DNA of 64,000 nt from Escherichia coli (GTDB lineage: Bacteria > Pseudomonadota > Gammaproteobacteria > Enterobacterales > Enterobacteriaceae), in the NCBI RefSeq assembly GCF_003991155.1, contig NZ_CP031295.1; one strand, 5' to 3'. The position numbers are program-made. Shown piece after piece: positions 31,504-34,500 of the stretch; the first letter of the stretch is position 1; each line of letters begins with the position of its first letter.

Positions 31504-34500
31504 TGAGTTCACAGATAAAACACTCTCCAGGAAAATCGGGGCGGTTCACTGATTTACTGAGACAGAATCTTTGCCCCTGAGTCTAAGGATGATCGTATAA
31601 CGTGATTTTCGGTCTACAAGTGTGGCTATATGAGAGTTTTTTGTACCTGAGACTAAATCGCCCTCCCAATGCCCCAGAGAGCGTCTGTTATCGATATTTC
31701 GGGAACGTTCGTGAATTGGTGTTCCGTTCACTATGTTAATCGTACCTCTTTCGCCTTTGCGGGTATGACGCCTGCCATGGCGAAGGCTATGCGACCGTCG
31801 CAGATGCTGTATATTCAGGTGGTGTAGCGCTTCACGGCTACGAAAGTACAGCGTTTTATAAATTGTCTCAGGTGATATTCGCAGCGTTTTTTGACGTGGT
31901 TTTGTTCGCCTTAACCATCCTGATATTTGCTCTGGAGACCATTTCATCTCCAGCTTTTCCAGAACAAGCTTTCGCAATGGTAAATTTTGATCCAGTAAGC
32001 ACGGTTTTGGCCTTTTCGCCATTCTGTTGGCTCGGTTATTAGCATCAACAGCTTTGTAATAGCGTCTGCCCCGATTACGCTGAACTTCACGTGAGATCGT
32101 CGAAGGACTGCGATTCAGCGCAGTAGCTATCGCACGAATGCTCATTTTGGCTGACAAACCAGCTCGTATCTCCTCGCGCTCAGACAGTGTCAGGTGAGCT
32201 ACAGCCCGCTTACGCTCATGGGGTTTTATGCCGCCAGTATCCCTTAACATAGTGAAGATCGTTCCGGGTTTTGAACCCAGGATATTCGCTATTTCACTGA
32301 AGCCTGTTCCGTTCTTCCATAGTTCAAAAACAGAGGCTTTTTCCTCTGCTGTAAATGTTCGTCTCATTCAAAAAACCTCCGCAACCCCATGTTTTCACAT
32401 AACTGTTGCGTTGACCAATTGAATCTACAGCGGCGTACTTCGCAAAGCTGTCCGACTGAGGTACGCCTTTATCCGTGACAACTCCTGTTGCTGGCCTGTT
32501 CGCCTGCTCTGTCGGGTGCTGGATGTTCATCCCAGTGGTTTTTACGCCTGGCTTCAGCAGCCGCATTCACAACGCCATCAGGCAGACCTGAGACTGACAG
32601 GACAGATTAAACAGTTCTGGCTGGAATCGGGATGCGTCTATGGTTATCGCAAAATCCATCTGGATCTGCGTGACAGCGGGCAACAGTGCGGAGTAAACAG
32701 AGTCTGGAGACTGATGAAACGTGTCGGAATAAAGGCTCAGGTCGGATACCGAAGCCCGCGGGCACGTAAAGGCGAGGCCAGTATCGTGTCACCCAACAGG
32801 CTCCAGCGACAGTTCAATCCGGATGCTCCTGATGAGCGTTGGGTAACGGACATAACCTACATCAGGACCCACGAAGGCTGGCTGTATCTTGCCGTTGTTG
32901 TTGATCTGTTCTCACGCAAAATTATCGGCTGGTCCATGCAATCCCGGATGACAAAGGACATTGTCCTGAACGCACTGCTGATGGCTGTATGGCGGCGTAA
33001 TCCCGAAAAACAGGTGCTGGTTCATTCGGATCAGGGCAGTCAGTACACAAGCCATGAGTGGCAGTCGTTCCTGAAATCACACGGCCTGGAGGGTAGCATG
33101 AGCCGTCGCGGTAACTGCCATGATAATGCGGTTGCAGAAAGTTTTTTCCAGTTGTTGAAACGTGAACGGATAAAGAAAAAGATCTACGGAACGCGGGAAG
33201 AAGCCCGCAGCGATATTTTTGATTACATCGAAATGTTTTATAACAGTAAGCGTCGGCATGGTTCCAGCGATCAGATGTCACCGACAGAATATGAAAACCA
33301 GTATTATCAACGGCTCGGAAGTGTCTAGATTATCCGTGGCGATTCATTTTGTGTTACAATTCAGTATATACCAGTTTAGCACTCCTGTTAGATTGGTGTG
33401 TATCACACTGACACAATGAGGTTTTTTCTATGATTTATAAAGATATAACTATTCTTTACATCGATAGTGGTAAAAACAATCGACTCATCCGTTATGATTT
33501 ACTGCGAAAAGAAAATAATGACTTTGTTGTTCAAGTGTTTGATGACCAGAATGAAGACATTGCTGATCCTAAACCAACAATAAAAATTGATCAGTTTGAG
33601 ATCACTTATGATAATTACCTTGATAATTGCAAGCATTCCAATAAGTTACCGGCCTCATTTGAAGAATATGTCGACATAAAATTACAGGACCACCGGGATA
33701 AGCTTGATTAAGCCACATACATGTTTAGCTTAAGGCTCAGAACATTTTAAATGTCTGAGCCATTTCTCACAGACCCCTACCCTGTAATGGCCATCGGGTA
33801 ATGACTCCAACTTATTGATAGTGTTTTATGTTCAGATAATGCCCGATGATTTTGTCATGCAGCTCCACCGATTTTGAGAACGACAGCGACTTCCGTCCCA
33901 GCCGTGCCAGGTGCTGCCTCAGATTCAGGTTATGCCGCTCAATTCGCTGCGTATATCGCTTGCTGATTACGTGCAGCTTTCCCTTCAGGCGGGATTCATA
34001 CAGTGGCCAGCCATCCGTCATCCATATCACCACGTCAAAGGGTGACAGCAGGCTCATAAGACGCCCCAGCGTCGCCATAGTGCGTTCACCGAATACGTGC
34101 GCAACAACCGTCTTCCGGAGCCTGTCATACGCGTAAAACAGCCAGCGCTGGCGCGATTTAGCCCCGACGTATCCCCACTGTTCGTCCATTTCCGCGCAGA
34201 CGATGACGTCACTGCCCGGCTGTATGCGCGAGGTTACCGACTGCGGCCTGAGTTTTTTAAGTGACGTAAAATCGTGTTGAGGCTAACGCCCATAATGCGT
34301 GCAGTTGCCCGGCATCCAACGCCATTCATGGCCATATCAATGATTTTCTGGTGCGTACCGGGTTGAGAAGCGGTGTAAGTGAACTGCAGTTGCCATGTTT
34401 TACGGCAGTGAGAGCAGAGATAGCGCTGATGTCCGGCGGTGCTTTTGCCGTTACGCACCACCCCGTCAGTAGCTGAACAGGAGGGACAGCTGATAGAAAC

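What the first reader, a model, noticed from the sequence alone, without database searches (positions are those of the whole stretch)
33381..33796. Unassigned AT-rich island with a 93-codon ORF between IS fragments
About 400 bp of low-GC sequence between the IS150-like fragment and IS1 contains one ORF (33430-33711) with no recognisable family. It may be a remnant of the locus into which the IS elements inserted.
Basis: seen in the sequence. Interest (0 to 1): 0.25.

Follow-up and report, generated by a model that had tools for sequence, protein, structure and literature searches.

The report
IS-trapped prophage-type gene of unknown function
The AT-rich patch is a 450-bp leftover of another plasmid's accessory region, caught between two insertion sequences, and it carries one intact small gene from an uncharacterised family that normally sits just after the lysis genes of lambda-like prophages; it is real but ordinary, and not part of the rcl locus.

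Summary
The low-GC island is 33347-33796, between the intact right end of an IS3-family fragment and IS1. It contains one ORF, 33430-33711 (93 aa).

- **Real gene.** The ORF is WP_000639434.1. dN/dS is about 0.055 against 81%-identical orthologues, and all 46 relatives tested match PHROG 31348 (function unknown).
- **Origin.** The island is not rcl-region chromosome. It is 100% identical to a stretch of K. pneumoniae plasmid pRHB26-C08_2, where it lies between a DUF2945 gene and DUF2913-moaEDB with no IS1. A 77-81% diverged version of that block is on an IncHI2A plasmid and on Enterobacter-type contigs.
- **Spread.** The IS-flanked module is near-clonal in about 200 enterobacterial plasmids.
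- **Wider family.** Relatives at 30-51% identity occur in Serratia, Edwardsiella, Rouxiella, Kosakonia, Citrobacter, Enterobacter and E. coli. In 9 of 9 loci with context they sit directly after holin-endolysin-spanin in lambdoid prophages. They are AT-rich, usually followed by a terminator, and have no conserved partner gene.
- **Fold.** A confident model (four strands, two helices) has no significant structural relative.

The function is unknown. The best guess is a stand-alone phage accessory (moron-like) protein that acts by binding. In this window it is a passenger. Low interest.

The parts
33347..33796 (.). AT-rich island: a 450-bp relic of a large-plasmid accessory locus, bounded by two IS ends
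   Evidence: It is 100% identical to L004 8001-8450 (K. pneumoniae pRHB26-C08_2). Identity stops exactly at both IS junctions. GC profile.
33418..33421 (+). Shine-Dalgarno GAGG, 8 nt upstream of the ATG
   Evidence: Read directly from the sequence. GAGG is also present in the 81% orthologue, where similarity begins at 33414.
33430..33711 (+). ORF93 = WP_000639434.1, a member of PHROG 31348; a small soluble protein with four strands and two helices
   Evidence: annotation; PHROG; dN/dS 0.055; conserved motifs; AF2 pLDDT 86.6; no hydrophobic segment.
33734..33761 (+). Stem-loop GGCTCAGAACAT-TTTAA-ATGTCTGAGCC after the stop codon; terminator-like but with a weak T tail (ATTTCTC)
   Evidence: RNA fold of 33712-33796 gives -20.8 kcal/mol, z = -3.65. 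The tool's terminator pattern did not call it. Homologues carry canonical hairpin plus T-run terminators at the same place.
32435..33346 (+). IS3-family fragment (orfB remnant 32516-33328 plus an intact right end); its 5' part is interrupted by IS30
   Evidence: ORF list. RefSeq calls it 'IS3 family transposase, incomplete, missing N-terminus'. All other copies end at 33346. The start coordinate is taken from the RefSeq pseudo-CDS and is approximate.
33797..34564 (-). IS1 (IS1SD-type), with no target-site duplication; it joins the island to a piece of E. coli chromosome carrying rclA
   Evidence: Terminal repeats read; annotation. The flanks differ (tggccatcg versus ttttgcgtc). The right flank from 34565 is 100% identical to a chromosomal rclA upstream region.

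Best explanation
**What the segment is (shown).** The segment 33347-33796 is a fragment of an accessory region of large MOBH/IncHI-type enterobacterial plasmids. In its native place, ORF93 lies between a divergent DUF2945 gene and a convergent DUF2913-moaEDCBA block.

**How it got here (inferred from the comparison of loci).**
1. An IS3-family element carrying an IS30 insertion lay about 281 bp to the left in the native locus. In the lineage of this window those 281 bp, which include the DUF2945 gene, are missing. The IS end therefore abuts the island, most simply through an IS-adjacent deletion.
2. An IS1 sits 8 bp short of the DUF2913 stop codon. It has no target duplication, so it joined the island to a captured piece of E. 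coli chromosome (rclA without rclR, rclB or rclC) by IS1-mediated recombination or deletion.
3. The resulting module then spread almost clonally on IncR/IncF-type multiresistance plasmids.

**The gene (shown).** ORF93 is a genuine gene under strong purifying selection. Its family is restricted to Enterobacterales. Outside the plasmid branch, the family is a solitary passenger gene of lambdoid prophages, sitting immediately after holin-endolysin-spanin and before the terminase genes. It is AT-rich and is usually followed by its own terminator.

**How it most likely works (inferred, about 0.3).** It is a stand-alone moron-like phage accessory protein. It is small, cytoplasmic and folded, and probably acts by binding a host or rival-phage component, for example in exclusion, anti-defence or host modulation. 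It is probably not part of the lysis or packaging machinery. In this window it is a hitchhiker whose upstream region is cut to 83 bp, so its expression here is uncertain.
For: **Origin**
- The island is 100% identical to L004 8001-8450, which has native flanks on both sides and no IS1.
- pKL53-L (L006) is an intermediate. It keeps 67 bp more of the native left flank and has the same island|IS1 junction.
- L005 and L004 are homologous at 77% from 16 nt upstream of the ORF through DUF2913-moa. The same synteny is seen on Enterobacter-type contigs.
- The island has no similarity to the chromosomal rcl locus, where rclR precedes rclA.
- Distribution: 166 E. coli records, with 137 places on plasmids and 34 on chromosomes; 200 PLSDB plasmids from Escherichia, Salmonella, Klebsiella and Shigella.

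**Gene reality**
- dN/dS is 0.054-0.063.
- There are 27 hits at E <= 1e-3 among 1.8 billion cluster representatives, about 20 of them full-length proteins of about 100 aa. A profile search found 60 proteins, all named 'hypothetical'.
- 46 of 46 relatives match PHROG 31348.
- Conserved RYD and Q-x-HR motifs.

**Prophage slot**
- 9 of 9 homologues with usable context follow the lysis cassette.
- The neighbouring holin, endolysin, spanin and terminase types differ between loci.
- No neighbouring gene is conserved.
- DLP12-like lysis-cassette homology in 3,524 E. coli genomes ends at the end of Rz, and the E. coli prophage copy of the gene has no match in any of the complete genomes.

**Moron hallmarks**
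- Gene GC is 0.31-0.44 against flanks of 0.47-0.53 in all 11 loci.
- A hairpin plus T-run follows the stop codon in L005, L007, L012, L014, L015, L016 and L017.

**Protein**
- No hydrophobic segment; pI 4.6-8.0 across the family.
- Two independent AF2 models give the same fold at pLDDT about 87.
Against: - No function is demonstrated for any family member.
- No sigma-70 consensus promoter was found upstream of the gene in the window, in the native plasmid loci or in two prophage loci. The 'independently expressed' part of the moron definition is therefore unsupported. In prophages the gene may simply ride the late transcript.
- The strict position next to the spanin genes could instead mean a lysis-related role.
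- The window's own hairpin lacks a good T tail.
- A few plasmid copies are frameshifted (P0005, P0006), so the gene is dispensable on these plasmids.
- The 281-bp loss could come from an independent IS insertion rather than a deletion. The IS30 part differs by 5.8% between the window and L004, while the IS3 part is 99.7% identical.
Confidence: 0.8

Rival explanations
1. The island is a remnant of the E. coli chromosomal rcl (ykgC) neighbourhood, into which IS3 and IS1 inserted.
For: rclA lies only 0.8 kb to the right. The rclA segment from 34565 is 100% identical to an E. coli chromosome.
Against: - In the chromosome, the sequence left of window position 34565 is the rclR-rclA intergenic region and rclR. 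BLAST of the island against that locus finds nothing.
- IS1 has no target duplication, so its two flanks are unrelated.
- The island is found with native non-IS flanks on a Klebsiella plasmid.
- Only 34 of 171 E. coli places are chromosomal. The one examined has the same IS-flanked module, twice, beside plasmid partition genes.
Confidence: 0.02
2. The ORF is a chance open frame in AT-rich junk DNA between IS elements, not a gene.
For: There is no Pfam, NCBIfam or PADLOC match. No promoter was called upstream. Some plasmid copies are frameshifted.
Against: - dN/dS is about 0.055 at dS of about 1.6.
- Nucleotide similarity to the 81% orthologue is confined to the SD plus the ORF.
- There is a family of proteins of about 100 aa with invariant residues.
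- The PHROG 31348 match is full length.
- The fold prediction is confident.
Confidence: 0.02
3. The family is a lysis accessory: a cytoplasmic regulator of the holin, spanin or lysis timing (in the way T4 RIII or P1 LydB act). The plasmid copy would then be a functionless stray.
For: 9 of 9 prophage homologues sit directly after the last lysis gene, on the same strand and 85-370 bp downstream. No separate promoter was detected, which is consistent with co-transcription with the lysis genes.
Against: - The adjacent lysis proteins belong to several unrelated families. The holins are of types 2_1, 3_3 and 8/3_7. The endolysins are lysozyme or GH108. The spanins are DUF2570 or Phage_lysis. A specific partner is therefore unlikely (same calls).
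- The plasmid and chromosomal-island branch has no lysis genes nearby, yet it is under strong purifying selection.
- The gene is compositionally foreign to the cassette and is usually closed off by its own terminator.
- Homology with the common E. coli lysis cassettes ends at Rz.
Confidence: 0.12
4. The protein is a PUR/Whirly-like (strand-strand-strand-strand-helix) single-stranded nucleic-acid binder.
For: The predicted topology is four antiparallel strands followed by helices. The top Foldseek PDB hits are MRP1/MRP2 and Borrelia Pur-alpha.
Against: - Those hits are not significant (E 0.3-0.8, TM 0.32-0.45).
- The window protein is acidic (net charge -7), and the family is neutral to acidic.
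- There is no sequence match to any PDB chain.
Confidence: 0.05

Closest known systems
Phage morons (as defined for HK97/HK022 and P22-like phages; definition quoted in PMC2629481)
   Same: A single accessory gene sits at a fixed point of the late operon, between conserved modules. It is absent from related lysis cassettes, compositionally deviant (12-17 points lower GC in most loci), followed by its own terminator, and has no role suggested by its neighbours.
   Different: No promoter of its own was detected, and no phenotype is known. One branch has left phages and lives on plasmids and in a chromosomal island.
PHROG 31348 (unknown function)
   Same: A full-length profile match for the window protein (E = 7.6e-18) and for 46 of 46 relatives (best E = 6.5e-56).
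   Different: The window's plasmid branch is the most divergent. It is 93 aa instead of about 100, because the loop between the two helices is shortened, and it is more acidic.
lambda bor / DLP12 borD: the cargo gene that follows Rz in lambda-type lysis cassettes (from general knowledge of lambda and E. coli K-12 maps)
   Same: Same slot, directly downstream of Rz/Rz1.
   Different: Bor is a lipoprotein encoded on the opposite strand. This family is soluble, has no signal peptide, is on the same strand, and is unrelated in sequence.
IS-bounded relics in multiresistance plasmid mosaics
   Same: A short piece of foreign DNA is preserved only because it lies between two IS ends. There is no target-site duplication, and it is propagated clonally with the mosaic.
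   Different: Here the relic happens to keep a complete conserved gene, and its donor locus can be identified to the base.

Membership tests
PHROG 31348 | Significant full-length match to the family profile | tested here: met
   E = 7.6e-18, residues 1-93 on profile positions 1-99 of 101. 46 of 46 relatives match.
Phage moron | Present at a fixed place in an operon but absent from related phages | tested here: met
   DLP12-like lysis cassettes in 3,524 E. coli genomes align only up to the end of Rz. The E. coli prophage copy of the gene has no match in any of 5,426 complete genomes. 9 of 9 homologues occupy the same slot.
Phage moron | Nucleotide composition different from the surrounding genome | tested here: met
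   Gene GC 0.31-0.44 against +/-3 kb flanks of 0.47-0.53 in all 11 loci.
Phage moron | Own transcription terminator | tested here: met
   GC-rich hairpin plus T-run right after the stop codon in L005, L007, L012, L014, L015, L016 and L017. In the window there is only a hairpin with a weak tail.
Phage moron | Own promoter / independent expression | tested here: inconclusive
   No sigma-70 consensus site upstream in the window, L004, L005, L012 or L015. A consensus scan cannot exclude weak or activator-dependent promoters, and there are no expression data.
E. coli rcl locus (rclR-rclABC) | Sequence contiguous with, or similar to, the chromosomal rclR-rclA region | tested here: not met
   No BLAST similarity to L019. 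Chromosomal homology starts only at 34565, on the far side of IS1.
PUR / Whirly fold | Significant structural superposition on a PUR repeat or Whirly domain | tested here: not met
Simple IS1 insertion into the island's native locus | 8-9 bp target-site duplication on both sides of IS1 | tested here: not met
   The flanks are tggccatcg | IS1 | ttttgcgtc. The right flank is E. coli chromosome.
Known anti-phage defence proteins (PADLOC-DB) | Match to any defence-system profile | tested here: not met
   0 families at E <= 10.

The most novel reading that the evidence does not exclude
PHROG 31348 proteins are a structurally new class of small phage effectors with one conserved activity, served by the invariant RYD...Q-x-HR surface. 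That activity would be useful both to lambdoid prophages, when expressed late from the slot after the spanin genes, and to large plasmids. Candidate activities are a superinfection-exclusion or anti-defence factor, or a lysis-timing modulator that works independently of the holin type.
Probability: 0.15. Interest if true: 0.5.

Novelty: new member of a known kind. Interest (0 to 1): 0.2.

Why it matters
For this window it matters little. The island is a passenger relic. It records how the resistance-plasmid mosaic was assembled: a donor IncHI-type plasmid locus, IS3::IS30, IS1, then a captured chromosomal rclA.

The wider point is modest. A small, well-conserved and confidently folded protein family with no structural relative occupies a strictly fixed slot after the lysis cassette in prophages of many Enterobacterales genera, and nobody has tested what it does. 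This one branch now travels on about 200 sequenced plasmids of E. coli, Salmonella, Klebsiella and Shigella.

Tried and rejected
- **Profile libraries.** Pfam, NCBIfam and PADLOC gave nothing for the window protein. Pfam and NCBIfam on 20 family members gave only scattered one-off weak hits, for example HEPN_AbiU2 at 0.0021 in one member. These were rejected as noise.
- **PDB sequence profile.** Nothing below E = 0.29.
- **Isolated phage genomes (INPHARED).** tblastn with three family members found no match.
- **IMG/VR scans.** The alignment had no stretch conserved enough to search with. A single-protein query with P0011 found nothing.
- **Rfam on the island.** Nothing.
- **Conserved partner gene.** All-against-all BLASTP of neighbouring genes found none.
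- **DNA-mimic idea.** It was raised by the acidity of the window protein. It was rejected at family level, because the family pI ranges from 4.6 to 8.0.
- **Literature.** A search for the accession found no paper.
- **Long phmmer hits.** The hits of 512-2162 aa with many matched stretches were taken to be compositional and were not pursued.

Full report
**1. The observation**

The window has an ATG-initiated ORF at 33430-33711 on the + strand, encoding 93 aa. A GAGG lies 8 nt upstream of the ATG. GC drops to 0.31-0.35 here, against about 0.5 or more on both sides.

The exact limits of the non-IS sequence are 33347-33796.
- **Left edge.** An IS3-family orfB remnant (32516-33328) and its terminal sequence end at 33346. 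Every other copy of this IS in E. coli genomes stops matching at that base, whatever follows.
- **Right edge.** The IS1 inverted repeat GGTAATGACTCC starts at 33797, and IS1 ends at 34564.

**2. Where the island comes from**

The 461-bp query spanning the island occurs at 99% identity or more in 164 of 166 matching records of complete E. coli genomes. Of the matching places, 137 are on plasmids and 34 on chromosomes. It also occurs in 200 PLSDB plasmids of Escherichia, Salmonella, Klebsiella and Shigella.

In the plasmid and chromosome records I opened from the E. coli set, the context is the same mosaic: IS30-interrupted IS3-family fragment, ORF93, IS1, rclA, IS26. The window is part of an IncR/IncFIA-type multiresistance plasmid mosaic carrying sul3, mef(B), IS26, parM and umuDC.

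Three records break the pattern and reveal the source.
- **K. pneumoniae pRHB26-C08_2** (256 kb, MOBH/MPF_F; locus L004). The island is 100% identical over exactly 33347-33796 and diverges at both ends. To the left are 281 bp holding a DUF2945 gene on the opposite strand. To the right, 8 bp on, is the stop codon of a convergent DUF2913 gene, followed by moaE, moaD and moaB. There is no IS1.
- **pKL53-L** (L006). This is an intermediate. It has 67 bp more native left flank than the window and the same island|IS1 junction.
- **Salmonella IncHI2A plasmid p58011** (L005) and Enterobacter-type contigs (L007-L011). These carry an 81%-identical orthologue in the order cydAB, ydeP-like oxidoreductase, fdhD, a 73-aa ORF, ORF93, then on the opposite strand DUF2913, moaEDCBA, bestrophin and a Clp ATPase. 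L005 and L004 are collinear at 77% identity, from 16 nt upstream of ORF93 through the moa genes.

The same IS30-in-IS3 composite lies in L004, 281 bp further left (window 31549-33346 matches L004 5922-7719). The simplest reading is that the window's lineage lost those 281 bp by an IS-adjacent deletion. An independent insertion cannot be excluded. The IS30 half is 5.8% diverged between the two, while the IS3 half is 99.7% identical.

**3. It is not the rcl region**

From 34565 rightwards the window is 100% identical to a chromosomal rclA region of E. coli 2016C-3878. More than 5,100 E. coli genomes match this segment. In that chromosome the sequence to the left is the rclR-rclA intergenic region and rclR.

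The island has no BLAST similarity to that 6.7-kb locus. IS1 is flanked by tggccatcg on one side and ttttgcgtc on the other, so there is no target duplication.

**4. The ORF is a real gene**

RefSeq annotates it as WP_000639434.1, hypothetical protein. Against the 81% orthologues, Nei-Gojobori counts give dS of about 1.4-1.6, dN of about 0.09 and dN/dS of 0.054-0.063. Nucleotide similarity to the orthologue begins 16 nt before the ATG and ends at the stop codon.

- A phmmer scan of 1.8 billion cluster representatives gave 27 hits at E <= 1e-3. About 20 of them are full-length proteins of about 100 aa.
- A profile search gave 60 proteins, all 'hypothetical' and none with a Pfam domain. They come from Rahnella, Enterobacter, Kluyvera, Citrobacter, Escherichia, Edwardsiella, Yersinia and others.
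- The alignments show invariant Y22 and R89 and invariant or near-invariant H88. Y10, R21, D23, V34, V36, P47, Y63 and Q86 are also near-invariant, and there is a C-terminal LQEHRNKLD-type motif.
- Pfam, NCBIfam and PADLOC have no model for the family.
- PHROG 31348 (unknown function) matches the window protein at E = 7.6e-18 over its full length, and matches 46 of 46 relatives.

**5. What the family looks like elsewhere**

I looked up nine distant homologues (30-51% identity) that had enough flanking DNA. All nine lie in lambdoid prophages on the same strand, immediately after the last lysis gene, in the order antiterminator Q ... holin, endolysin, Rz/Rz1-type spanin, **gene**. In eight of the nine this is upstream of the terminase genes.

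- The neighbouring modules are of several unrelated types. The holins are of three families. The endolysins are lysozyme or GH108. The spanins are of two families. The terminases are of lambda GpA, HK97, P22/Sf6 and DUF2280 types.
- No neighbouring gene is conserved across loci.
- In all 11 loci examined, the gene is much more AT-rich than its +/-3 kb flanks (0.31-0.44 against 0.47-0.53).
- In seven loci a GC-rich hairpin with a T-run follows the stop codon.
- The lysis cassette of the E. coli example resembles the DLP12-type essD-rrrD-rzpD cassette of 3,524 complete genomes only as far as the end of Rz. The gene itself is in none of them.

These are the classic marks of a moron, as defined in PMC2629481, with one exception. 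A simple sigma-70 scan found no promoter upstream in any locus tested. In prophages the gene may therefore be transcribed with the late operon.

No family member was found in isolated phage genomes.

**6. The protein**

It has no hydrophobic segment and no signal peptide. The window protein has a net charge of -7 (pI 4.7), while the family ranges from pI 4.6 to 8.0.

AlphaFold2 gives a confident model: pLDDT 86.6 and pTM 0.77, with strands at 6-11, 20-26, 32-39 and 50-58 and helices at 60-69 and 77-91. An independent model of a 99-aa prophage member, built from a 46-sequence alignment, gives the same fold. It shows that the residues missing from the plasmid branch form a loop between the two helices.

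**7. Best explanation and its limits**

*Shown:*
- The island is a relic of an IncHI-type plasmid accessory locus, trapped between an IS3-family end and an IS1.
- ORF93 is an intact gene under purifying selection, from a prophage-associated family.

*Inferred:*
- The order of events (IS-adjacent deletion, then IS1-mediated joining to rclA).
- The gene works on its own. The arguments are that it has no conserved partner, that it stays under purifying selection away from any phage, and that it is indifferent to the type of its neighbours.
- It acts by binding rather than catalysis, because it is about 95 aa with a simple strand-helix fold.

*Guessed (about 0.3):* a role in phage-host or phage-phage conflict. 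The main functional rival is a lysis-accessory role, suggested by the fixed position (0.12).

In this window the upstream region is cut to 83 bp with no recognisable promoter. Some sister plasmids carry frameshifted copies. Here the gene is best seen as cargo that came along for the ride.

**8. Verdict**

This is a real feature, correctly spotted and partly misattributed. It is an ordinary IS-bounded relic that carries a member of an uncharacterised, moron-like prophage gene family. Interest is low for the window. There is a small residual interest in the family itself.

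Noticed in passing
window 30293-33346: The insertion sequences are nested. A complete IS3-family element (transposase about 30293-31506, with a programmed frameshift) sits inside an IS30 (remnant 31549-32367 on the - strand). 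That IS30 in turn sits inside the IS3-family fragment that ends at 33346. The same IS30-in-IS3 junction recurs in K. pneumoniae pRHB26-C08_2 and in the E. coli S43 chromosome. In pRHB26-C08_2 the IS30 half is 5.8% diverged while the IS3 half is 99.7% identical.
   Followed up: partly
window 33797-35943: IS1 lies 53 bp upstream of the annotated rclA start (34618), with no target duplication. It cuts rclA off from rclR and the native control region. rclA is alone, without rclB or rclC, and is followed by IS26. The segment is 100% identical to an E. coli chromosome over the 736 bp tested. In pKL53-L the same IS1 abuts rclA internally at 34827, which is a further deletion.
   Followed up: partly
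L003 (E. coli ST540 'chromosome' NZ_CP007391.1): The IS30::IS3 - ORF93 - IS1 module occurs twice within 8 kb, next to plasmid partition genes. This suggests an integrated or misassembled plasmid segment rather than native chromosome.
   Followed up: no
window 34591 vs 34618: The mechanical ORF for rclA starts at 34591 (450 aa), but RefSeq annotates 441 aa starting at 34618. The extra nine codons lie in sequence shared with the chromosome.
   Followed up: no
P0005, P0006, P0009 (relatives of ORF93): Some plasmid copies are frameshifted after codon 54-58. One metagenomic protein (P0009, 108 aa) has an unrelated N-terminus fused to the last 39 residues. The gene is therefore occasionally broken in the plasmid lineage.
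   Followed up: no
L005/L007 7683-7904 and L004 7703-7918: The gene upstream of ORF93 differs between the two native plasmid lineages. It is a 73-aa ORF on the same strand in one and a DUF2945 gene on the opposite strand in the other. ORF93 is thus the leftmost gene of the conserved ORF93-DUF2913-moa block.
   Followed up: partly
L026 (Kosakonia prophage locus): Here the family gene follows a lysis cassette, but no terminase follows it. Downstream are iraP-like, ynfU-like and HSP20 genes, so this looks like the edge of a decayed prophage.
   Followed up: no
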